A stretch of 60,000 bases of DNA from Botryllus schlosseri. Its lineage: Eukaryota. The position numbers were made by a program, and so were the translations under genes. The stretch covers positions 23,438,001 through 23,498,000 of the forward strand of contig CM119372.1 of the NCBI GenBank assembly GCA_051294905.1, read 5' to 3'. Every line of letters begins with the position of its first letter. The first letter of the stretch is position 1. The notes under the pieces were generated by a model, which saw nothing but the letters and a program-made list of their open reading frames with translations, was not told the DNA's origin and ran no database searches. Below, piece by piece: positions 9,763 to 51,825 of this stretch.

Positions 9763-11258
9763 CAGTGGTTCCCAACCGGGGTGGAATTCCCCCCTTGGGC
9801 GGAATTTTGCAATTTTTAGGGAGGAATTCCACATTAGAATTGTAACGGATTTCCAAATTGTTCATGTCCGAACTGTCATGTAGTCAACCAGTTATATCCG
9901 AATGTATGCTCCTTACGGCATTTTTTGTTTGCTGAAAGTATGTTCAAATGCTATTTGAAATCTATTTTTCACATACAAATTCCCCCTTTTTTAAAACTAG
10001 TTCAGATGTGCTGCAGTTCGCACGAGAATTTTGTAGGTCAGCGACGGCCTCTCAATCAAAAATATCCTAAGCGAGGAAATGTCGTGCCGAATCCATCCCA
10101 ACAAGGCCTCTACTGAAAGTATTTATCTTATATTTTCAAGTCAACATTTTCAGACAGTGACAAAATATTCTAACGTCATCGATTCAAGTCAAAGAGATCG
10201 CTAGCCTTGCTTTATTTTTAGTGAACAGCTACCCGATCGAAAAAAGACATGTTAAACTTGGTGCAATGTTGCCGAAACGTAATGGGTGTCCTAAATTTCC
10301 AGCAATGAATCTGATCACGTGTATATTATATATCAGGGCTGTAACCAAATCACGAGGCTCCGAGTAACAAGTCAATCTCACTTTCATAGTTTTGACTCGA
10401 GTCAAGTCGAGTCATTTTCAATTCACCATTGAGTCAAGTCCGAGTCCAAGTCACCGAGCAGAGGGCCGAGTCCGAGTCATGGTATTATGACTCGAGTCCA
10501 AGTCACACTCCAGTCAACACTGTTTGGTGATATTGAATGATTTGCATTTATGATGAACTAATTTTCCTCACTTTGAGCAGTGTCTTGTCGCATTGTCAAG
10601 TACCAGGATCAATAGACTAAATTCCAATATGGTGTTCATTTTACTGTTCTTCGAAATTACAATGAAATGTCGGTCTTGGCCGTCTTATAGTCTCGAGTCA
10701 TATATGGCTTGGTTCGAGTCATGCACAATGACTCGAGTCCAAGTCGAGTCAACACCCAGATTGTCTTGAGTCGAGTCGTTTCCGTATTTTGAGAAAATGA
10801 CTCGAGTCAAGTAGAGTCATCAGAAAATGGTGACTCGAGTCTGGTCAACCCTCCTATATATGAAAGTACCAATATTATTGGCCATGCATACGCAAACTTG
10901 AGGAAAAAATCGCGACACCAGTAAATTTATGCATACTGATTTTTCACAACAGTTATATTAGCGATTGGTGCATGGTAAGCCAAAAACACAAATGGAAGTG
11001 TGGGGGTCTGTTGAGTCAAGCTTTCCAGAAGTTGTTTGATTGGGACCAGGACCATTGTTTTTGGAGGTCTACAAAGTGTTATTACAGCACTGATAGAAAC
11101 AAACACTCGATACCGCCCGTCTTATTCTCTCAGTCAACAGGTGTTTGCGCGGTAAAAATGACCTTTATTAATCATAGGGCAGATTTATCCTAAGGGGGGG
11201 AATTTTGGCTTAATTTCGGCCAAGGGGGGCACGCGATGAAAAAGGTTGGGAACCACTG
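9763..11258. mobile_element. hAT-Charlie-like MITE inserted in a reversed family D copy
   Basis: TIR CAGTGGTTCCCAACC...GGTTGGGAACCACTG with a degenerate GCCTAGGC target duplication. Family D sequence runs on both sides (9625-9762 and 11259-11310). Confidence 0.8.
10334..10853. mobile_element. GACTCGAGTC-rich MITE (family B-related) nested in the Charlie-like element
   Basis: Degenerate CAGGG termini, flanks TTATATAT/CTATATAT, many GACTCGAGTC palindromic subterminal repeats. Confidence 0.65.
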
Positions 11259-11742
11259 GCCTAGGCGAAGTAAAGAAGAGGCATGCACACTGAATGAAAA
11301 GTATTGCAGAGAATATAAGACGCAAGCGACAAAATGAGGTGGCATGTGGCGGAGGGCGAGGTCGATGTTAGGTCGTGGTCCGGTAATCCTGAATACTGGC
11401 TAGTAGTCAGAAATTGCTTGTATTTCGACTTGAATGTGGACATGCTCGACGACTATTATACAAATAATCGTAGTAATGTTTGTGCTTTACTATGTGTGGG
11501 TTTTGGGAGTGGGTACATGTGGGAGTGAAGATAATGAGTCACCGCTCAACGTTCTTGCATTGTGATTACAATGACTACATTAAAGTGATGCACGTATGAT
11601 TATCAACTAACGAATGCTACTTCTGAAATTTTCGTCAAGTGTTCCATTACTATTTCGCTGTACCCTGATTTATTATTGATATAGAAAATTTTCGAGTTCA
11701 TCATATTACGTCTTTTGTTGTCCGTGTTTTTCTTTTCCGAGC

Positions 11743-12963
11743 ATGGCTGACGAGAGGAATCCGTCTCCGCCTAGAGAATTCGATGATCGAGCGGAAACTT
11801 TCCGCCAAGATTTGATCGGAAATACCACGATAAGCAAGAAATGGGTTTACAAAATATTGGTGGAAGTTTGCACAGTGGTGGATTCGCACCAGAAAGTTGA
11901 AGAAGAGGAAGTTGTTAATCTTTCCGAAGACTTGCAAGATGACATGTGTCGACTCTGGGACTTATGTGTTGAAGAGGATGTGGCAAATTTTCTTGTAGAT
12001 TCAGACTCTATTGATATGTTTTGCAAAATATTGAATGCCAGCAAAAGTCCAAGACTTACGGAGATTATAATCGGGATATTGGGAAATATGACCTGTGCAG
12101 AGAAACCTTGTAAAGCATTGTCAGAAAGTCCTGAAGCTCTTTTAGCAATCATATCTCTTTTCTCATGTCGTGATTCTATGACTCTTGTGGAGTTAGGGCG
12201 TCTAGTGAATACATGTTTGTCTACTCAAACTTGTCAGGGATACTGGTTGGACTTTTTAGAATCGAATGTTTCTAATTTTTATGACGATGTGACATTTATA
12301 TTGCGCTCCTGTACCAATGAATCAGTACTGAAATACACCCTCGAAGTCTTGGATATCTGTTTAGACTCCCGAGATAGCATGCTGATGTCATTTTCTCAAA
12401 GAGAATTTTCAGACATTGTCGCAAAAGCTGGTTTGCAAGTGTTGCAATCCGGTGATTGGTCTGCTAGCGCCATCACGCACCTACACATTTTGTATCTTAT
12501 CACTGCCGTCGAAGATGCGGTTTCTGACATCTTTGCCTGTAATCGTAATATTTTTCAATTTGTCGCCAAATGCTTTGAGATATGGTCTGAATTTGACGAA
12601 TTCAGTATAGCCGATGATAACCCATCAGTAATTCCTCTTGCAAGCTGCATGACTATTTACTATGCTATTTTAGATTCTTCACGATTGTCTGAAAATTTTG
12701 GGCAAGATTTTTTCGACGCTATTTCGGACATGCAAAAGCAAAATGTTTCATCATTGACTTACTCTACCATCGAGTACTGTGAATCCATTTCTTCTCGTAA
12801 CGGTGTGTCGAAATCTGAGCAACAGTCAGCTGAGACTGAAACCTGTGCCAGAGAAAAAGTATCTGGCTTGAAAGTAAATGAAACGCTTGTCAAAGGGGTG
12901 CCAATTCTTGATATTGCCAAGGACCTTAAATCTATTATAACAAAGTTAAAGTGGATTCAGTAG
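11743..12963 (+). CDS. SAAL1: SAAL1 (serum amyloid A-like 1) homolog, 406 aa, intronless
   Basis: Uninterrupted ORF. RNPSPP, D.IG.T..SK.W, C(R)LWD, SK.PRL.EI..GILGNM.C and FIL.S.TN match the SAAL1 family as recalled. Confidence 0.88.
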   Translation: MADERNPSPPREFDDRAETFRQDLIGNTTISKKWVYKILVEVCTVVDSHQKVEEEEVVNLSEDLQDDMCRLWDLCVEEDVANFLVDSDSIDMFCKILNASKSPRLTEIIIGILGNMTCAEKPCKALSESPEALLAIISLFSCRDSMTLVELGRLVNTCLSTQTCQGYWLDFLESNVSNFYDDVTFILRSCTNESVLKYTLEVLDICLDSRDSMLMSFSQREFSDIVAKAGLQVLQSGDWSASAITHLHILYLITAVEDAVSDIFACNRNIFQFVAKCFEIWSEFDEFSIADDNPSVIPLASCMTIYYAILDSSRLSENFGQDFFDAISDMQKQNVSSLTYSTIEYCESISSRNGVSKSEQQSAETETCAREKVSGLKVNETLVKGVPILDIAKDLKSIITKLKWIQ

Positions 12964-12970
12964 CTACGAA

Positions 12971-12998
12971 TTTTATACAGATTCCAACTATTTTCCAG
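12971..12998 (+). promoter_or_regulatory. Candidate trans-splice acceptor site(s) for CDK5
   Basis: TTTTATACAG (12971-12980) and TTTTCCAG (12991-12998) lie in the 75-bp SAAL1-CDK5 spacer. The spacer has no AATAAA/ATTAAA and little room for a promoter. Confidence 0.55.
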
Positions 12999-13038
12999 GG
13001 GCGTAACTTTGATTGTGCTAAGATCAAAGAAAACGATC

Positions 13039-13914
13039 ATGCATAAATACGAGAAAATAGAAAAGATCGGGGAGGGCACTTATGGGACTGTCTTCAAAGC
13101 CAAGAATCTGGAGACCATGGAAATCGTCGCATTGAAGCGAGTCCGTCTTGATCAAGATGACGAAGGCGTTCCTAGCTCGGCGTTGAGAGAAATCTGTCTC
13201 CTCAAAGAACTGAAGCACAGAAACATTGTACGCCTCCATGATGTTCTGCACAGTGAGAGAAACATGACATTGGTGTTTGAATATTGCGACCAAGATCTTA
13301 AAAAGTACTTTGACACGTGTGGAGGCGTGATCGATCAGCAAGTCGTGAAATCCTTCATGTACCAGATGCTGAAGGGGCTGCAGTTCTGTCACAATCACAA
13401 TATTCTTCACCGTGACTTGAAGCCTCAGAACTTGCTCATCAATAAGAATGGAGAGCTGAAATTAGCGGACTTTGGATTGGCGAGGTCGTTCGGAATTCCT
13501 GTGAGATGTTACTCGGCTGAGGTCGTGACTCTCTGGTACCGTCCTCCGGATGTACTTTTCGGTGCTAAATTGTATTCCACATCCATTGACACTTGGAGCG
13601 CTGGATGCATCTTTGCAGAAATGACTAATGCCGGTGCTCCACTTTTTCCTGGTAATGATGTGGATGACCAACTGAAAAAGATCTTTAAATTATTGGGCAC
13701 TCCAACTGAACAATCATGGCCTGGTCTGACAAAATTGCCAGATTATAAACCTTTTCCGCCATATCCACCAAACTCAATGTGGTATCATGTTGTACCACAA
13801 TTATCTGCGGAAGGCCGTGACCTACTAGCACAGTTGATCATAGTGAACCCTAATAAACGTATGTTAGCAGATGAGGCACTACAGCATCAATATTTTGCAG
13901 ACTTTGCCACGTGA
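13039..13914 (+). CDS. CDK5: Cyclin-dependent kinase 5, 291 aa, intronless
   Basis: ATG at 13039 gives [23 protein letters not shown]. Contains the CDK5-diagnostic PSSALRE helix, [45 protein letters not shown] at 13912-13914. Confidence 0.98.
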
Positions 13915-14060
13915 CGTCAAGATTTTGACTGATATGAATCGCTGATGCAGTAGTCTCACAATTGTGATGCAATGTTATCCGGATGCAGTATGTGTAAAAA
14001 TATGTTATGTTTGGGGGTTATTATGGAACACTCCTGGTCTATTTTTCCTGAGGAGGCCTA

Positions 14061-14066
14061 ATTAAA
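14061..14066 (+). terminator. Candidate polyadenylation signal (ATTAAA) for CDK5
   Basis: Variant hexamer ~150 nt after the CDK5 stop, just before the fold-back element. Confidence 0.35.
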
Positions 14067-14092
14067 AGCTTCAACATTACACGCATGTGCAT

Positions 14093-14673
14093 TAGGGCTC
14101 TTTGGGTCAATTCCAGCCAGTAACCGCTTTGCTACAGGAGAAGAAAGTTTCTATTTATTATATAAAAATAAATGATAAAAAATTTGAAAGTTTTCTGTCC
14201 ACCCCATGAAAGTGTTAGGCTGTCTATAGAAACGATGCTCACCAAATTTGGTTCAATTCCAACCAGTGGAAGCGGAGTTATTGCCGTCGAAAAATTTTGA
14301 TTTGAATAAAATAGTATTTATGGTGAGCACAACTATAATAAATAAACAAAGAATCGGTCACCGTAAATACTATTTTATTCAAATCAAAATTTTTCGACGG
14401 CAATAACTCCGCTTCCATTGGTTGGAATTGAACCAAATTTGGTGAGGATCGTTTCTATAGACAGACTAACACTTTCATGGGGTGGACAGAAAACTTTCAA
14501 ATTTTTTATTATTTATTTTCATATAATAAATAGAAACTTTCTTCTCCTGTAGCAAAGCGGTTACTGGCTGGAATTGAACCAATTTTTGTGTGTAGGCTTA
14601 AATTAGGTAACCTAACAATTTTATCAAGTAGCTCGTATGATTTGAGAAAAAAAATCATTTTTGAAGAGCCCTA
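14093..14673. mobile_element. Fold-back element with ~225-bp near-perfect inverted arms
   Basis: Termini TAGGGCTCTT...AAGAGCCCTA, 8-bp TSD ATGTGCAT. Arms ~14101-14326 and ~14358-14583 are reverse complements around a ~30-bp loop. Confidence 0.9.
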
Positions 14674-15417
14674 ATGTGCATTGTGCACGCATACATGCGT
14701 GTGCACTTATATCGGATTCTTGCCACTGTTTGAATCTCATTGACAAGTCTCATTCTGCATATGTATTGGTTTTATGAGGTTCATGTACAGAGGAAGAGGA
14801 AGGCTTCAAACATTCATAAATATCTTTCGATTTCTCATTACATGTATTTGCATGGCTTTTCGTCCAGTAGATAGATAGTTGTCCTATTTGAACTTCACCG
14901 CGGTGCGGAAGTGACAGATTGTGTTCAAATGTACCTCCGCTTATAGTTACATGTGAACAATAAATTCGAACGCACATTAGTTGTTTGAATGAACTTGAAC
15001 CAGCAATGAATCCAGATATATATTCATCGTCAAGGCCCATACCCCTTTGTGGTAGTTGGCGTGGTGGTGAAATACGCATGTAGACGCAGACCTTTTTGAT
15101 TCTTGCGAGCAGTCAAAGCGTCGTAATCACTTCCAGCTATCCGTCATTGATTCTGGCGGCATCAAAAAAGTCGGGAATGGAAGGAACAGAGCAATGAAGA
15201 GCGTCTAAAAAAAGATCAAGATCGTTACGTTGGACACTAGGCTGATTTGGATCCAGATTGAGAGACCGTACTTGGTCGTTTCGACGTCCTATCTATTTAT
15301 TAGTCCTTCACCGCATTGTTGGGTCTTCTGTGTCGCATTGTATGTCTGTCTTGAGCGCGTGAACATAGAACGCGTCTTTTGTGTCACATCATAGTGTCCT
15401 ATTATGGTGTGGACACA

Positions 15418-16354
15418 CAGTGTTGGGATGACTCGAGTCACCTTTTTCGTATGACTTGACTTGACTCGAGTCACTTTACAAAAATGACTTGACTTGACTT
15501 GACTCGACGTTTCAAAAATGCAGATTGACTCGTGACTCGAACCAGAATTTACGAGTCAATTTCAAGTCATCCAGTAATCGATGTCGACTAAATCGCTGTA
15601 TTTTGTATAAGTTCGGATTGTTAACGATACGCCGATGTGACCTGCGAGAGCAATCAATTATTGGATGATTGTGCGATTTACACAATTAAATCACAAATAA
15701 ATTGATCGCAAGCGCAGTGATCGGAACGTACGTTCTCGTAAGCTAGTATGATGAAGTAATATACTAGCAATACATCTGTGCTCCATAGACTGCTCAGTGC
15801 TCACACTGCCCAGTGCTCACCTCAACCAACCCTCTTGTATGACTTAAATCGAACGAATATCGTCCATACGTATATAACTGCATATCATGGATATGTAGCT
15901 GGGTAGGGTATTGCACCATATCATTTTTCAACTTCCTGAGATTTCGTATTGTATCCTATATTTTGGCTGATAATTGTAGACGCAGTGTCGTTATACTTGC
16001 GTAGTTCGGATGTTTTGCGTATTCGTGAGCTATACAGTGTCTTTTTTTAAACTATCTTTTCGTTCCTCGATTCAGAATAAATAGGGACTCCATCTGTATG
16101 CAAAACAGCTAGCAAAAGCAAACACTTTGAATCATATCTCGTACTTTCAAAATTCAACTTGACTCGACTAGTGACTTGACTCGTGACTTGACTTGACTTG
16201 ACTCGACTTGACTCGAGTCACCTCCAAAAATTGGGTGACTTGACTTGACTCGAGTCACTTTTGCAAATCGAGTGACTTGACTTGACTCGAGTCAAAATGT
16301 GCAATGACTTGAGATGACTCGTTACTCGAAGGGAGTGACTTGATCCCAACACTG
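15418..16354. mobile_element. hAT-like MITE, family B
   Basis: TIR CAGTGTTGGGAT...ATCCCAACACTG, perfect TSD TGGACACA, (GACTT)n and GACTCGAGTC subterminal arrays. Confidence 0.9.
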
Positions 16355-18406: not shown

Positions 18407-19723
18407 CAGTGTTGGGATGATTCGAGTCATGACTTGACTCGAGTCAACTTTTTGTCGTATGACTTTACTTGACTCGAATCACTTTGTAAAAATGACTTGA
18501 CTGGACTCGACTCGGCGGTTCAATAATGTGGATTGACTCGTGACTCGGAGCAAAATTTACGAGTCAATTTCAGGTCATCAAGTAAACGGTGTCAATTAAA
18601 CCACTGTATCTTGTGCATGTTCGGATTAAATTATTCACGATACGCCGGTGTCACCAGTGAGAGCAACCAGTCATTCACTGATTGTACGTTTCACTGCTCC
18701 TCCATTGTTATATCACAAATTACCAGACCGCAAACGAAATGATCACAGCTTGCATTGTCGTAACAGAAGTGAATCGCAGCAGCAGCGTATCCTTGTTTAT
18801 TAGACGGCTCTGTCCTTACATTGCACAGCGCTCACATTTACCAACCCTCTCGTATGATTCAAATCGAACGAATATAGTTTATGCGTTTATATTCTCACCG
18901 ATGTGTAGATGGTTGGTGTATTGTATATTGTAGTAGAGGATATCAATTTCTTTCAACTTCTTGAGGGTTCGTATTCAATCGTCTATTTTGGCCGATAATA
19001 ACAGAATTTAGCATGTTGCTCAGACTGGCTGCATCAGTCAAATGATTCCTAAATATTACCAACCATTAACTCAATATATGCACTTTTTCGCATTATCGGT
19101 TGTCAATGTCAGCGATATGCTCCTGACGATGACTAGAAATCACAACTCCGCTGTCGGGTGCATGGTTATAATGTGGCTTATGAACACACTCGACATTTGC
19201 TATCTAGAAGGAATATTTATTAGAAGTATTTCTTACTAGAAATTCGAGAAATGTGCTGGATAATATACACGCATTTTTCAATCCATCTTTTCTCAGAATT
19301 GCTTCGCGGGCCGGATGAAATCATTTGCCGGTCCGTATGTTTGACACCCCTGGTGTAGCTAGTTACTGACGTATTTTATTAGCAGTTCCACCTGTGCGTG
19401 AGCGATACAACGCATTTTTGCATGTATATTTAACTTTATATCCGTTATTTGATTCAAGATGAATGGCCAATCTGTCTTTATCACAGCTAGCAAAATGTAA
19501 TGACTTTGAATGATCACTCACTCTTCGAAAATTCAATTTGACTTGAATTGTGACTTGACTCGTAACTTGACTTGACTTGAGTCACCGCCAAAAAAACGAG
19601 TGACTTGTCTTGACTCGAGTCAGTTCGAAACTCGATTGACATGACTTGACTTGACTCGAGCCAAAATGTGCAATGACTCGGGATAACTCGTGACTCGAAG
19701 GTACTGACTTGATCCCTTCACTG
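18407..19723. mobile_element. Family B MITE, first unit of a tandem dimer
   Basis: CAGTGTTGGGATG start, GATCCCTTCACTG end, colinear with 15418-16354. Carries a Charlie-like remnant ending at ~19352. Confidence 0.85.
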
Positions 19724-20021
19724 ACAGTGTTGGCATGACTCGAGTCATGACCTGACTCGAGTCAACTCTTTTGTATTACTTGATTTGACTAGTGACACTT
19801 TACAAAAATGACTTGACTTGACTCGGCGCTTCATAAATGTGGATTGACTCGTGACTCGGAGCAAAATTTGCGAGTCAATTTCAAGTCATCAAGCACGGTG
19901 TCGATAAAATCGCTGTATCTTGGGTCTGTTCGGATTGTGCGCGATACGTCTGTGTCACTTGTGAGAGCAACCAGTCATTCACTGATTGTGCGACGTACGT
20001 TCACTTATCCTCCATAGCTAC

Positions 20022-23435: not shown

Positions 23436-26045
23436 TGTATGCTGTATACCATGGAACATGTATACTCATTACCATATCAATTTGTTTCAACTTCTTGAGG
23501 CTTCGTATTCCATGCTCTATTTTGGCTGATAATAACAGACCGTAGCACGTAGCTATACAGTTAATCACGCATTTCTACATGTTCGTGAGCGATGGAAGGC
23601 CTTTTTTCATGTATATTTGACTTTATATTCGTTAGTTGGTTCAAGATAAATCTGTCTTTCACACAGCTATCAAAATGTAATGAATTTTGATCATCACTCA
23701 TACTTTGAAAATTCGATGTGACTTGAATTGTGACATGATTCGTGACTTGACTCGAGTCACCTCCAAAAACGAGTGACTTTACTTTACTCGAGTCACCTTC
23801 GAAAATAGATCGACTTGACTTGACTCGAGTCAAAATTTGCAATAACTCGTGACTCGAAGGTATAGTGACTTGATCCCAACACTGACTTTTATACAGAAAA
23901 TGTGGCGTACACTATGAATCCCATGTAGTGAACTTTAATGTTGTGTCACGATGACATCACAAATCTTCAAATCTGACGTAACAGTATATTGATATTGTTG
24001 TTGCGGCTCTTCGAGAATTATTATTGAATTACGACCAGAAACTCTCCCGACCCCTGACGTAGACTATGAGTTCAACGGAAACAGCCAATTGCGATGAGGT
24101 ATAACATTAACACCATTTGTAATTTATCAATCATTTCATTTCGTGATTGGCGTAAGTCTTACAAAACATATTACAACGTTTCAAGTAATCGGCATGCGAA
24201 ACTATTACGATTTTCACTGTCTTATCTTAATTCCAACAAAATAAACATGGAACAGACTGCGTGCTTGTAATCACGACCATAATTTTGTGAAGACTCTTTT
24301 GTCCTTCGTCGATAATAAGATAACATATATCGTCATTCGCAATTTTCCGTCAGTTGGAAACATCATCACGCGATGATATATACATCGTCTAACCTTTGCC
24401 ATTCTATGAGTGAAGAATGTGAAGTCTATTATTTTGTGACAATCAAACACCGAAATCATGATCAATTTTACAAGGTGATTTATACATTTGATTCGTATAT
24501 CTTCTACTGATCTCGCCTTAACAGGTTTCGTTGAACAAAAGAGAAACAATGATATAGGTCTACTATACCAGATTCCGATGGCTATATAAATCCGAACATT
24601 GGCCTATAGCTTAGAACATATTGTACATTGTACAAATTGCACTATATATGATAATAACGTTCCTATTCTAATAGTTACCCCACTAATTTTAGTGATTTCA
24701 AACCAGGAATTATTGGAATGGTGTGATGTTCAAAATAATAATATTATATCTGTAGGAATGTATTTTGCCAAGCAGTGGCGTATCCAACGTAGGCCTGTAG
24801 TTGTAGCAATAGGCAACATATGACATCACCATTATGCCTTCTCAAATTATCTAACATCTGACCATACAATTGCGCTGAGGAAAGTGGAAATGAACTGACA
24901 TAGACCTCGATATGTTCCCTGGTTAAAACCAGGGATTTACGTCAATACATATTTCTGCTCACAATGTATAAATATAAGAATGATTTGGAATGAGAATAAC
25001 GAAGATGTCAGTTATTGCGCGCAGATCCTGCCGCCTTTCGTATAATGTCTCTTCATTGATACGGGTGTCCCACACACGATACCCAGTACCATGCTCAATC
25101 CGGTGCGAGACATCCATGACACGATGTTTCTTTCCCGAATAACCAGAAATATCCGTTTCTAGTGCCGAATGAATTTTAAGAAACTTGATTTTGATGTGGA
25201 TCTTCGTTTTCTTTGCATCATTGTCCAAAACCCATACCTTTCTTCTGCTAGCATGTGCCGTGTCGATTGTAAGCTGAAGTCTTTTGTGTTAATGATGCTT
25301 CTGCGACGTCTGCCTGATTTTTTTGGAATCATCTTTTTCCTCATCGGCACGGTGTAGCTGTTTGCCTGAATGAAACAACATGGTTTGACAAACGTGTTAC
25401 CGGTCTTACACTGACGACTTCGAGGCTCTCACCATTATGATCGTGTACCGTAACGGAATTACGTTCTAAGCCTAGATATAATTGATAAACGCTAAGCAAA
25501 ACCGAGTGATTTCACTTTACCTAATTATGGAAAAGTAAAATCTGTAATACCATCACGCATGAGATATGATCAGTGTATTAGAATAGTCTTGATACGACAA
25601 ATTTAGATAGAGCCATGCGATGCTGATGCTCAAGTCGTGACGGCAGTTTGTCAAATGTGCATTTATGTCGACCAATCAATCATATATCCACGTATGCGAT
25701 AGTTCGGTGCTTGTTTATTGGTTTGAGTAACGGAAATGTAATGTGCGCCGAGACCGGATATCTAAAACTCCCTGGCCGAGACACGTCGACCAATACAAGT
25801 GCACAAATATATACAGTTGTTTCTATTTTGCTCAAAAATAATATAGTGCGCCTGGAAATCATTGTTCGGACGCGCTTTTTCTTCCTTATATATTAAATGC
25901 ATTATTGAATCGAATCCTCTCTCCGTAAATATATAATATATATATGCTCGAAATTGGAGTATTAGTGAGACTCCCATAGGAGGACCTAGCTATATGGCCT
26001 GTACAAGTGTACATAAGGCAAAAAATCATTTACAATGAGTTGAGA

Positions 26046-45292: not shown

Positions 45293-48200
45293 ATGATGAC
45301 GGCAATAATTACGGGATCAATCATTTTTTGCGAGATCGTGTTTGTATTGGCTGCCGATCTACAGTGGTTGTGAGTTGGCAATGAAAAAATCGAAAACAGG
45401 ATAGTTAGATACAATAAATGCGTTTTTGCAGGACTGCCAGTCACATAGCTGATCGACATGTGGTAATCACAAGAAAATGGTGCAAGCGTACTCCAGGGCT
45501 TGCATCGGGGCAAAGAAAGGTACCATTTCCATTATCATTATCTACCTACATTCTACAATCTAGATACAGCTTCACTATATGCCTATATCGCATATAACGA
45601 ACAATATACTGATAATGACGCATTGATCTAGCAGCCCTATAAAATCAGTAAAGCATGTAACAAACTCATTATATAATGTGTGCAATGGCAGATATGCAAG
45701 GATCACACAATGAGTATGCCAGCGATTATTTCAGCTACAAAATTGGCGATAAAGGCTTGTCAGATTCAAATGGCAGATCGAGATTGGAACTGTACAGTGG
45801 AATCCACTGGACGCTTCAGACACGCCCCGAAATCTGGTGAGTTGTGAATGAACAAGCAATTCTAGAAGAGAAAATTTCTGTTGATGCTGTTGTGAATAAT
45901 GAAAAGCTATACAACTAGGGATGGTGTGAACGCGAGGTTCACGTTCGCGTTCTGTGTGTGAACCTCTGAAATTTAGAGGTTCGCGTTCACAACAGAACCT
46001 TGGTAGGTTCTGCACTGTGAACCTATTTCATATATCACAATTTTCACTTCATTATAACTTTTTTTATTCGAATTTAGTGCATTTCAACTGCGGGCCACTC
46101 TATGCATGGCGCTGGCAGCATGAAAAATCAACACAAAACGATCATGCACCTTGACCATTTCAAAAATTTTACTTGCTTTGTTACAAAAGTTTGCTCGAAA
46201 TATCCAGCTTACCGTTTGTGAATATTTAGTGACTCTCTGCTGTGAGCTTGTCCCGCAATCACAAAACATCACGAGCGAATACTCCATGTAGTCAGCAAAT
46301 GATGCTTATTCAACCAATCAATGCGAGAGAGAGAGAGAGAGAGAGAGAGTCTTTATTTTTCATCAAACCAAAATACATAACACTCGGCAGTGGTGGTGGT
46401 ACAGAAAATATGCATGCACAGTATTCGGTATTAGATAGGAATGATCGATAAGACCGTGAGGGTCATCTAGTCTGATCACACCAGCATCAAAAAAAAAATT
46501 GATATCGTTTTTTGATGTAACAAATCTAGCAGGCGTATAAGAGGTCAATCTTGACTTCATATGTTTATTGTATCATAAAAAACAAATCCGTACGATTGAG
46601 GTGTTGGCTACAGATGTATAACTTGTGGGGTAGCCTAATATCGATAACAAAAAGAAATCTGTTTTACACCCTGCTCAATATCAATGTAGCAATACTCAGA
46701 CGCTGAATACATTGTCCGGTCTGGCCAAGACCGTTACGGCGTAAGCTTATATTCCCGGGCAATTCCTCGTCGAAACTGTTGGCAAAGCGACGGATGTTAT
46801 TGATTTTATGGGAGTATTATATCATTTGATTGCATCAGTTGATACGTTTAGCGACATTTAAAACGCCAATATGTACTTCAGCATTGTGGCATTATGTAGC
46901 CCGAGTCGTCGCTATAGGTCTCGTGTACATTAATATAGGCTATTACTTCATTGAAGGATAGGGTTGGAATTAGCAATATGACGTCGCGTGACGTCATGAG
47001 GTTCACGTTCGTGTTCACACAGAACCTTTCAAAAAGGTTCGCGTTCACACGAACCTGAACCTTTCAGAGGTTCACACCATTCCTAGTACAACCCATTATC
47101 TCGTTTATGTTCTGCAATCTTTTGCAGGTAGTCGAGAATCTGCTCTGATTCACGCTTTGGGATCATCCGCAATAGCATTCACGCTGTCGAAGTATTGCAG
47201 CAGGGGATTAATATCAGATTGTGGATGTGTTGAAGATCCGGGCGCAGAAGTCGACGAAAACTCGGCATTTGCCTGGTCTGGTTGTTCTGATAATGTTGCA
47301 GTTGGAGTTGCATTCGCCGAAGCCTTCATGAAGTCTTGGGATCTCAGCTTATGGAGAACGAAACAGCTCGGCAACAAAGATAAAGGTTCCAGGTGGAAAA
47401 AATTGGGCAAGATACTCGCGAACCTGCGAAATAACGCGGCCGGTACGAACGTAAGTATATATCTGAAACATTTGTGATTTTTGATATATCTGTGATTTTC
47501 GCCAGAGTTCCATTTTGAACATTTCCCATTCCACCATGACTCGAAGCAGACGAAACAGATAGATTCGGGGCCGACGAATCTTGAAAACACCAAACTGCGT
47601 CAATATGTATCTTCAACATTCCCGATCTCTACATTATCAAGCCTGGTACTTACCGAGGGCGTCTAAAATTTGTCACCAATGACGCGACCCCACAGATCAT
47701 TTGTGCCGTAGTGAATATGACTTTCAATAGACCGAGACGCCTATTTCTATTCTATATCTTCAAGCTGCTTAAATGTTCTTCGAAGTGTCATTTTCGTACT
47801 TCAACTTGAAATAGTTTTGGCCGACCTTGAAACTCGCTACTACTGATATAATTGAGCATAATATAACGGTTTAACTGGGTACTAACAATTACGACTTTGA
47901 CCACGTCTGATTATACGTTAGATATTACATCAGAGCCTAAGGAAAAATTGTGCATGTCACGGAATGACAGGGAGTTGTGAAGTAACTACTTGCTGGAAAA
48001 GTCTCCCACCCTTCGCTGTCATCGCAAAATCTTTGAAGATTAAATATGACAAAGCGATTCGCGTGAGTATCACTAGTTGACCCATACAAGAATTTGTCTG
48101 GCATGCAGCAACGGCTTCCGCGTGTATTCAGGTTAGATTGCGGAGAAGTCATTTTGGGGATGGAGCATTTCAGCCAATAAATCGAAGCCTCAATGACATC

Positions 48201-48434
48201 AAAAAGGGTGATTTAATCTTCCTGCGCCGCCCGAAGAAATTTTGCGAAACGAGGGGAAGAGAATGCATGCCGTATTCCTTTGGCCTTGGCTCGTGCGATG
48301 ACCTATGCTGTAACCGAGGATTTCAGACACGAACCCAGATAATTTCCACTCGTTGCCGTTGTCAATTCGTGAATTGTTGTCGGGTAGACTGTGATTCGTG
48401 TTTTAGTGAGGTTCTAGTTCATGTTTGCAAATGA
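45293..48434 (+). CDS. Wnt: Divergent Wnt family ligand (possibly Wnt11-like), 6 exons, ~358 aa
   Basis: Exons 45293-45369 (signal peptide ...DLQWL), 45432-45519 ([14 protein letters not shown]), 45692-45836 (ICK...[15 protein letters not shown]), 47128-47450 ([11 protein letters not shown]...WSGCSDN...NLRNNAAG), 47922-48062 ([17 protein letters not shown]), 48132-48434 (...CCNRGF...[17 protein letters not shown]...HVCK stop). All GT-AG and in frame, with the Wnt cysteine pattern. Confidence 0.95.
45916..47085. mobile_element. Family F MITE filling most of Wnt intron 3
   Basis: TIR TAGGGATGGTGTGAAC...GTTCACACCATTCCTA, flanks ATACAAC/GTACAAC, GGTTCACGTTC/GAACCT repeats, internal (GA)n at ~46325-46349. 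Confidence 0.8.
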
Positions 48435-50817: not shown

Positions 50818-50994
50818 ATAATTTGACGCACACGACATATTAAACAGGGTTTCAGTATGGGTCTCGACCCAAACAAGGGTTGCGAAGGGTGTAATTTTGG
50901 ATCGCGAAGAAACGGAAGTTTTTAAAATGGACAAATCTCGTATAGACTAGAGAACGGCCTTCCCGGACAACTCGGACTTCTTTGAATGGCGGCC

Positions 50995-51825
50995 ACGGCA
51001 AGGAATGCGTACGCGTACGACTCGCGAGGCTATCCACGTATAGGTATTCTTGCCTACGCAGACGACCTCGCCTTGCTTGCCCCGAATACCGCATCGGCAC
51101 AGCGACTCATCAACCAACTAGAGGCCGCCGCCGCTCTTATTGGCCTCCTGATCAATGCCAGGAAGACTGAGGTTCTGGCCATACCAGCTCTGCCGCGATA
51201 CCAATTCAACTGGGAGAAGTCAGGCTCAAGAATGTCAAGAGTTTTATATACCTCGGCATTGACGTCGCGGACTCTGGAAAAGCACTGAAGGCGAGGCGAG
51301 CAAAGGCCTGGGGCGCGGCAAAACGGTTACATTGCCTCTTCCACTCAGCTCAAGACCCGCATTTTCCGTGCCACTGTCGTGCAGGTTCTTCTCTACGGAA
51401 TAGAAGCACTCACGCTGACAGAAAAGCTGGCTAAGACACTCAACGCCAACTACGATACACTCCTCCGCTACGCATTCGGTATCCACCACCCGGAGCACAT
51501 ATCCACCAATGCTCTGCACAAACTCACAAAAACGCTCCCATTCCGTTTGCTGGCTGCTGAACGACGCATCCGCCTAATCGGTCATCTAGTGCGGCATCAA
51601 GACGATCAACCAGCCGCCGCCATCATCCACCACATTCCGACGGAGCCATGGCGCAGAGGTGGCTGGAATAGAACCACATGGCGCTCGACAATAGAGACCG
51701 AACTAGCGCAACGCGGGCTATCGCTCGAAGACGCCCACGACCGCCCTCGCCGGAGGCACCTAACAAGAGACCAAAACTGATTATCTTGATGTTCTTTTGT
51801 TTCCTGTTTTCTTTTGCCCTTTTAT
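50995..51825 (+). pseudogene. 5'-truncated, frameshifted non-LTR retrotransposon reverse transcriptase (RTE-like)
   Basis: ILAYADDLALLA, GLLINARKTEV, then a frameshift to FIYLG, then VLLYGIEALTL, RRIRLIGHLVR, RRGG...TW. Stop at 51780, T-rich tail, locally GC-rich. Confidence 0.85.

What the first reader, a model, noticed from the sequence alone, without database searches (positions are those of the whole stretch)
11743..13914. Intronless SAAL1-CDK5 pair looks like a trans-spliced eukaryotic operon
Seen: two co-oriented single-exon ORFs separated by only 75 bp. The spacer has no poly(A) hexamer but two pyrimidine-AG acceptor motifs (ending 12980 and 12998). SAAL1 also has a pyrimidine tract ending in AG two bases before its ATG. 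Established: vertebrate CDK5 and SAAL1 are multi-exon and unlinked, and ascidian operons are resolved by SL trans-splicing, have almost no intercistronic DNA and are enriched in single-exon genes. Inference: CDK5 is a promoter-less downstream cistron co-transcribed with SAAL1. Joint intron loss may reflect reverse transcription of a spliced dicistronic RNA.
Basis: partly seen in the sequence, partly recalled or inferred. Interest (0 to 1): 0.72.

Follow-up and report, generated by a model that had tools for sequence, protein, structure and literature searches.

The report
Sea-squirt SAAL1-CDK5 trans-spliced operon
Two intron-free sea-squirt genes lie back to back, and the second (the kinase CDK5) gets its front end from a spliced leader RNA, as in known sea-squirt operons; relatives suggest the pair formed after CDK5 had already lost its introns.

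Summary
Core claim supported, side claims corrected. SAAL1 (11743-12963) and CDK5 (13039-13914) are intact single ORFs 75 bp apart in a stolidobranch ascidian. In bulk RNA, 14 reads carry the published chordate spliced leader joined at 12998|12999 (17 reads cover 13024). The AG at 12980 shows no use. The AG before SAAL1 is a GAG: 6 of 6 reads there follow the genome, and RNA starts near 11720. Single-cell reads pile up just before the acceptor and fade at 12995-13023, there is no AATAAA, and 2 reads plus one contig cross the acceptor unspliced. This is the Ciona operon anatomy. SAAL1 keeps introns in a Ciona/Clavelina-like contig, while CDK5 is called as one ORF on large contigs of that clade. 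This argues against joint reverse transcription of a dicistronic RNA; a later SAAL1 retrocopy in CDK5's outron fits better but is unproven. An extra CDK5 promoter inside SAAL1 is not excluded. The scan's notes report this leader elsewhere in the genome, not this pair. Verdict: new member of a known kind.

The parts
11708..11742 (+). Apparent transcription start region and short, non-trans-spliced 5' UTR of SAAL1 (mean read start about 11722); G+T-rich
   Evidence: Depth 0 in 11504-11707 in 4 of 4 runs; 6 of 6 bulk reads at 11737 follow the genome; start estimated by arithmetic on bin depth; G+T 78% in 11710-11741, top 0.3% of 32-nt windows
11739..11741 (+). GAG before the SAAL1 ATG; no sign of use as a trans-splice acceptor
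   Evidence: -3 base is G; 0 of 6 bulk reads SL-joined; a leader-joined read would show T at 11737, the reads show A
11743..12963 (+). SAAL1, single-exon upstream cistron, 406 aa
   Evidence: groups with Styela clava among named proteins; expressed
12964..12998 (+). 35-nt SAAL1 3' UTR that is also the last part of the CDK5 outron; no AATAAA; holds the unused CAG at 12978-12980
   Evidence: Run X21 covers 12968, 12992, 12995 and 13024 with 8, 5, 3 and 0 reads; motif scan
12996..12998 (+). CAG trans-splice acceptor; spliced leader joined to 12999
   Evidence: Loose end before 12997 in 14 reads of run X23, agreement 0.9; with the AG at 12997-12998 it equals the 25-nt 'Chordata 1' leader of PMC3795323 Table 1; leader not encoded in the window
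12999..13038 (+). 40-nt 5' UTR of CDK5 behind the leader, no upstream ATG
13039..13914 (+). CDK5, single-exon downstream cistron, 291 aa
   Evidence: 10 of 10 listed allelic differences that I classified in this ORF are synonymous (133 difference rows were not shown)
13915..14100 (+). CDK5 3' UTR; end not resolved (RNA covers at least to 14061; ATTAAA at 14061, AATAAA at 14167, 14305 and 14337)
14086..14680 (.). Palindromic MITE-like repeat directly behind CDK5 (arms 14102-14326 and 14358-14582, 97% complementary); may supply the CDK5 poly(A) signal
   Evidence: very high contig depth and loose ends show many copies elsewhere; the poly(A) role is inference

Best explanation
A two-gene, SL-resolved ascidian operon of the Ciona type. 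Polymerase starts about 20-35 nt before the SAAL1 ATG (inferred from read starts) and runs through SAAL1 into CDK5, since SAAL1 has no canonical poly(A) signal (shown). The spliceosome joins the host spliced leader to the CAG at 12998, giving a capped CDK5 mRNA with a 40-nt 5' UTR (junction shown). SAAL1 mRNA keeps its own transcribed 5' end (shown in few reads) and gets its 3' end at or near that AG (bounded to about 12995-13030; exact base not shown). The whole SAAL1 gene thus serves as CDK5's outron; having no introns, it offers no real splice donor that could capture the acceptor in cis (inferred). History (inferred): CDK5 was already intron-free in the ascidian ancestor, SAAL1 lost its introns later, and the pair formed on the stolidobranch branch.
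For: 14 leader-joined reads at 12998|12999 against 17 reads in all at 13024; exact match to a published chordate leader. 3'-type peak at 12728-12931 in both single-cell runs (depth 44-55 and 28-31), falling to 0 at 13024 in X21. 2 bulk reads and contig 12811-13055 cross the acceptor unspliced, while 11504-11707 has no depth in any run, which argues against DNA. Ciona operons: poly(A) on the G of the acceptor AG in 41 of 55 upstream cDNAs, no AATAAA in 16 of 18, upstream gene not trans-spliced in 14 of 20 (PMC1488885); 60% have a single-exon first gene (PMC2760879); weak upstream donors go with efficient trans-splicing (PMC11155486). Equal contig lengths for the two genes: 6483, 4746, 5540 and Styela clava 25,587,678 with accessions XP_039267625 and XP_039267630.
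Against: No read or contig spans both ORFs. Crossing evidence is 2 reads (possibly one fragment) and one contig of a run whose RNA status is a guess. No poly(A) loose end is among the rows shown (409 not shown); an A-rich stretch near 13027-13033 could prime the 3' peak internally. In X22, 4 reads cover 13024, so the drop is less clean. Bulk depth over CDK5 (about 14) is about three times that over SAAL1 (about 4), which an added internal promoter would also explain. CDK5 shows little 3' signal in the unique part of the single-cell runs. Donor-like motifs are not significantly depleted in SAAL1 (GTRAG 0 against 1.4 expected, P 0.20). Linkage in relatives rests on equal contig lengths; order and spacing were not seen.
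Confidence: 0.83

Rival explanations
1. Tight neighbours rather than a true operon: CDK5 is a monocistronic trans-spliced gene whose own promoter and short outron lie inside the 3' part of SAAL1, alone or in addition to read-through.
For: CDK5 depth exceeds SAAL1 depth about threefold in bulk RNA, and X1 contig depth rises from 21 to about 35 after 12488. Ciona outrons are mostly under 500 nt (PMC4691747 passages), so one would fit inside SAAL1.
Against: The SAAL1 3' end coincides roughly with the acceptor and lacks AATAAA, so SAAL1 transcripts must reach the acceptor. The only start pile seen is before SAAL1. 3' bias, RNA stability or either-or processing (PMC1488885 Discussion) also explain the depths. 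Linkage is kept across stolidobranch-like lineages.
Confidence: 0.13
2. One reading: an intron-containing SAAL1-CDK5 operon was reverse-transcribed as one spliced dicistronic RNA, so both genes lost their introns together.
For: Retrogene replacement is called common in Ciona (PMC5803294 passage citing Kim et al. 2014).
Against: No intron-containing linked ancestor was found. In Ciona the genes are on contigs of 10,238,876 and 8,965,682 bp. SAAL1 has GT-AG introns in contig L002, while full-length CDK5 proteins are called on ENA/JGI contigs of 10 kb to 1.85 Mb that group with Ciona and Phallusia (100/99), so CDK5 seems to have lost its introns first.
Confidence: 0.1
3. The AG at 12998 is a cis-acceptor for a distant upstream exon, or both genes are downstream cistrons of a longer unit.
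For: Sequence alone cannot tell cis from trans acceptors.
Against: The joined sequence is the published leader, preceded by what I recall as the tail of the template-switch oligo, so it is the mRNA 5' end; it is not in the window. No depth in 11504-11707 and no Pfam-recognised ORF of 75 aa or more within 30 kb.
Confidence: 0.02

Closest known systems
Ciona intestinalis SL-resolved operons without intercistronic DNA (Satou et al. 2006, PMC1488885: passages and Discussion read; Satou et al. 2008, PMC2760879: parts 2-3 of 5 read)
   Same: Same-strand pair under 100 bp apart; downstream gene SL trans-spliced; upstream 3' end at about the acceptor; no AATAAA; single-exon, non-trans-spliced first gene; two cistrons.
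   Different: Different order of ascidians and a different leader (24-25 nt against Ciona's 16 nt); this gene pair appears unlinked in Ciona; both cistrons are intron-free; base-exact abutment is not shown here.
Oikopleura operons and SL1-type operons of C. elegans (as described in PMC1488885 Discussion)
   Same: One leader serves both single genes and operons; Oikopleura upstream cistrons also lack AATAAA.
   Different: Oikopleura keeps 23-30 nt between cistrons; SL1-type operons have AATAAA in the upstream gene. Here a gap of up to about 25 nt is not excluded, and AATAAA is absent.
Retrogene replacement in Ciona (Kim et al. 2014; seen only as a citation and title in PMC5803294)
   Same: Intron-free housekeeping genes whose orthologs elsewhere are spliced (shown for SAAL1 in L002).
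   Different: Here the intron-free gene is the first cistron of an operon; loss of the parental copy could not be checked without the genome; no relic leader was found.

Membership tests
Ciona-type SL-resolved operon | Same-strand genes less than 100 bp apart | tested here: met
   75 bp between coding regions
Ciona-type SL-resolved operon | Downstream gene receives the spliced leader | tested here: met
   14 reads at 12998|12999 in run X23; leader matches the published consensus
Ciona-type SL-resolved operon | Upstream gene is a real protein gene with its own polyadenylated mRNA | tested here: met
   Conserved SAAL1 ORF; 3'-type read peak at 12728-12931 in 2 of 2 single-cell runs; the poly(A) tail itself was not seen
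Ciona-type SL-resolved operon | No intercistronic DNA: poly(A) added at the G of the acceptor AG | tested here: inconclusive
   X21 reads fall from 3 at 12995 to 0 at 13024; X22 has 3 and 4; base-exact end not shown; internal priming near 13027-13033 possible
Ciona-type SL-resolved operon | Unresolved dicistronic transcript exists | tested here: inconclusive
   2 bulk reads and one contig (12811-13055) cross the acceptor; nothing spans both ORFs
Ciona-type SL-resolved operon | No AATAAA within 40 nt before the upstream 3' end | tested here: met
   None in 12851-13040
Ciona-type SL-resolved operon | Downstream gene has no promoter of its own | not testable with these tools
   Needs cap-based start mapping or promoter deletion; outrons are lost from mature RNA
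Retrogene (SAAL1) | Orthologs elsewhere have introns that are missing here | tested here: met
   L002: exon for residues 1-43, 3927-bp GT-AG intron, exon for residues 44-84, second GT; the window ORF is continuous there
Retrogene (SAAL1) | New locus relative to the parent; parent lost or elsewhere | tested here: inconclusive
Retrogene (SAAL1 or CDK5) | Relic leader, poly(A) tract or target-site duplication in the DNA | tested here: inconclusive
   No relic leader: 14 and 17 mismatches of 25 at the two 5' ends, no 14-nt match in the window; tails and duplications not searched systematically; an old event would have erased them
CDK5 ortholog | Best match to CDK5 over the full length | tested here: met
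   542 bits against CDK5, 379 or less against other kinases; 87% to Styela clava CDK5

The most novel reading that the evidence does not exclude
A datable case of operon birth by retro-insertion into an outron: a SAAL1 cDNA landed between the promoter and the trans-splice acceptor of an already intron-free CDK5 on the stolidobranch stem, took over that promoter, used the acceptor as its 3' end, and replaced its spliced parent. If general, this explains why 60% of Ciona operons start with a single-exon gene, which Satou et al. 2008 left open.
Probability: 0.35. Interest if true: 0.62.

Novelty: new member of a known kind. Interest (0 to 1): 0.36.

Why it matters
About a fifth of Ciona genes lie in such operons, so one more is not surprising in itself. 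Its value is twofold. It shows, with reads, the same operon anatomy in a stolidobranch ascidian with a different leader. And its two genes seem to have lost their introns at different times and to be unlinked in Ciona, which makes it a clean test of how ascidian operons arise and why their first gene is so often single-exon. It would also tie the level of a neuronal kinase to the promoter of an unrelated housekeeping gene, possibly with an either-or choice per transcript.

Tried and rejected
No whole genome is held, so paralogs, a parent copy and a genome-wide operon survey could not be checked. No RNA holder was listed on record; the raw-read runs came by species label. SAAL1 has no Pfam hit in the local library; identity came. 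Rejected on reads: acceptor 12980 and an acceptor at 11741. The pile of 5 ends at 12896 in X23 is treated as duplicates, since the allele at 12879 has only 2 start places. Depletion of donor-like motifs in SAAL1: not significant in any of 5 patterns (lowest P 0.18); TTYAG is if anything over-represented (8 against 3.65). Relic leader in the DNA: none. Scans of prokaryote genome contigs: nothing for CDK5, one weak 44-residue bacterial match for SAAL1, set aside as chance. The metagenome scan gave 2 loci from 89 stretches, neither with CDK5. Clavelina CDK5 was not among the 120 of 138 hits listed or the clusters read, so linkage in Clavelina is untested. No paper on this pair turned up in searches (listings only; one search gave 0 papers); the supplement search of PMC1488885 gave no hit, with one file not searched; supplements of PMC2760879 (operon list) were not read and may bear on whether Ciona CDK5 is in another operon. 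PMC7324659 and PMC3691228 passages gave nothing on this locus. Earlier-notes look-ups by sequence, near place and words were empty.

Full report
Observation. The window holds two uninterrupted + strand ORFs at 11743-12963 (406 aa) and 13039-13914 (291 aa), 75 bp apart. The second is CDK5 (542 bits against solved CDK5, 379 or less against other kinases). The first is SAAL1: all 23 hits with a gene name among 35 are called SAAL1 or serum amyloid A-like 1 (the rest are unnamed or 'hypothetical'), the best named one being Styela clava at 42%, and the Atlas puts it at 0.98 with SAAL1 clusters. Trees place both proteins in a 7-row group with Styela clava (96/88 for CDK5, 100/98 for SAAL1), so the host is a stolidobranch ascidian, probably a colonial styelid (inference). 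The genome is not intron-poor overall: two Wnt exons lie at 46992-48431. The spacer has CAG motifs ending at 12980 and 12998 and no AATAAA or ATTAAA. Such motifs are common (69 strict matches in the window), so they prove little. The AG before SAAL1 is a GAG.

Reads. I laid 4 of the 24 listed runs on 11300-14330: one bulk and two single-cell raw RNA runs, and one contig set. In the bulk run (about 6% read), 14 reads have a loose end before 12997. Its last 23 letters plus the AG at 12997-12998 equal the 25-nt 'Chordata 1' leader in Table 1 of PMC3795323 (one passage seen). The 7 letters before it match what I recall as the tail of the template-switch oligo, which would mark the mRNA 5' end. The leader is not encoded in the window. 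Seventeen reads cover 13024, so most CDK5 5' ends in this run are leader-joined (the two counts come from different tables). Only 2 bulk reads cover 12992; they also cover 12968 with the same allele and 4 other differences and do not cover 12921, so they cross the acceptor unspliced and none starts at 12981. One contig (12811-13055) also bridges the acceptor. No run has depth in 11504-11707, which argues against DNA in these data. No splice joint inside either ORF is listed.

SAAL1 ends. At 11737, 6 of 6 bulk reads follow the genome (one allelic difference, one other), and 6 reads cover 11799; a leader joined at 11742 would read T at 11737 with 14 mismatches. Bin depth puts the mean start near 11722, and 4 single-cell reads with about 57 aligned letters of 90 fit an adapter plus a 5' end (inference). 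The T-rich tract (78% G+T, top 0.3% of windows) is thus more likely the G+T-rich stretch that follows starts of trans-spliced Ciona transcription units (PMC4691747 passages) than an acceptor. The sample is small, perhaps three fragments. At the 3' end both single-cell runs peak at 12728-12931 (depth 44-55 and 28-31). X21 covers 12968, 12992, 12995 and 13024 with 8, 5, 3 and 0 reads; X22 with 7, 3, 3 and 4. The SAAL1 end therefore lies at about 12995-13030. The exact base is not shown (409 loose-end rows were withheld), and internal priming at the A-rich 13027-13033 is possible; that too would need transcription across the acceptor. The CDK5 3' end is unresolved: RNA runs at least to 14061 and then into a high-copy palindromic element.

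Mechanism. One start before SAAL1, read-through for want of a poly(A) signal, leader addition at 12998, and a SAAL1 3' end at about the same bond. This is the anatomy described for Ciona: poly(A) on the acceptor G in 41 of 55 upstream cDNAs, no AATAAA in 16 of 18 operons, upstream gene not trans-spliced in 14 of 20 cases, with a possible either-or outcome per transcript (PMC1488885, passages and Discussion); 1,310 operons, 60% with a single-exon first gene, significance 'not clear' (PMC2760879, parts 2-3 of 5). Weak upstream donors go with efficient trans-splicing (PMC11155486 passages), which gives a reason for an intron-free first gene; my test for donor depletion in SAAL1 was not significant. 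Against a pure operon: bulk depth over CDK5 is about three times that over SAAL1, and nothing spans both ORFs, so an added promoter inside SAAL1 remains open.

Relatives. Among the six best SAAL1 hits and the seven best CDK5 hits, four pairs share a contig length: 6483, 4746, 5540 and Styela clava 25,587,678, where the accessions are XP_039267625 and XP_039267630. The remaining top hits (1374, 1440, 3734, 1349) have no partner of equal length. I could not see these contigs, so order and spacing are unknown. In Ciona intestinalis SAAL1 is on a 10,238,876-bp and CDK5 on an 8,965,682-bp record, unlinked if both come from one assembly. Contig L002 encodes a SAAL1 79% like Clavelina and 77% like Ciona in exon 1, with a 3927-bp GT-AG intron after residue 43 and a second donor after about residue 84. 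Full-length CDK5 proteins are called on ENA/JGI contigs of 1.85 Mb, 1.2 Mb, 1.06 Mb, 343 kb, 325 kb, 128 kb, 44 kb and 10 kb, and group with Ciona and Phallusia. These calls appear to be unspliced ORFs: Clavelina-like SAAL1 is called in two pieces (residues 272-342 and 354-500) on one 1059-bp ENA contig. That is an inference about the gene caller, not a view of the DNA. One tunicate-like CDK5 call stops after residue 200 on a 2576-bp contig, possibly at an intron, so CDK5 may not be intron-free in every lineage. On balance CDK5 lost its introns before the stolidobranch-enterogonan split, SAAL1 afterwards, and the pair formed on the stolidobranch branch. This goes against joint reverse transcription of a dicistronic RNA. 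A SAAL1 retrocopy inserted into CDK5's outron is the simplest single event, but a move of CDK5 behind SAAL1 followed by intron loss fits as well; no relic leader was found. Retrogene replacement is called common in Ciona (PMC5803294 passage; Kim et al. 2014 seen as a title only). That vertebrate SAAL1 and CDK5 are multi-exon and unlinked is recalled, not tested.

Novelty. No paper on this pair appeared in six searches (listings only). Earlier notes of this scan report the host leader at transposon genes of the same genome but nothing on this locus. The system is a new member of a well-known kind. Interest 0.36; the retro-insertion reading has probability about 0.35 and would deserve about 0.62.

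Noticed in passing
window 14086-14680: High-copy palindromic MITE-like element right behind CDK5 (225-nt arms, 97% complementary). CDK5 RNA runs up to it and it holds AATAAA at 14167, 14305 and 14337, so it may supply the poly(A) signal; a long hairpin in the 3' UTR is possible.
   Followed up: partly
window 46992-48431 (+): Two exons of a spliced Wnt gene (Pfam wnt, E 5e-16 and 1.5e-19); subfamily not resolved. Its position in Ciona relative to CDK5 or SAAL1 would show which gene moved.
   Followed up: partly
window 50986-51285 (+): Fragment of a reverse transcriptase (RVT_1, E 7e-6, below the curated cut-off), a decayed retroelement.
   Followed up: no
window 12968-13024: An allele with changes at 12968, 12992, 12995 and 13024 keeps the CAG acceptor; both the 2 unspliced crossing reads and the bridging contig carry it. 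Too few reads to say whether it is spliced less well.
   Followed up: no
window 11300-11454: Strongly read high-copy repeat ending about 270 bp upstream of the SAAL1 start region.
   Followed up: no
window 10390-10852, 15419-16354, 18407-19998, 23474-23852: Family of repeats built from short GACTCGAGTC/GACTT units, in both orientations, flanking the gene pair.
   Followed up: no
protein P0162 (Logan contig of 2576 bp): Tunicate-like CDK5 call that is continuous for 199 residues and then stops, possibly at a lineage-specific intron; its tree position among tunicates is unresolved.
   Followed up: partly
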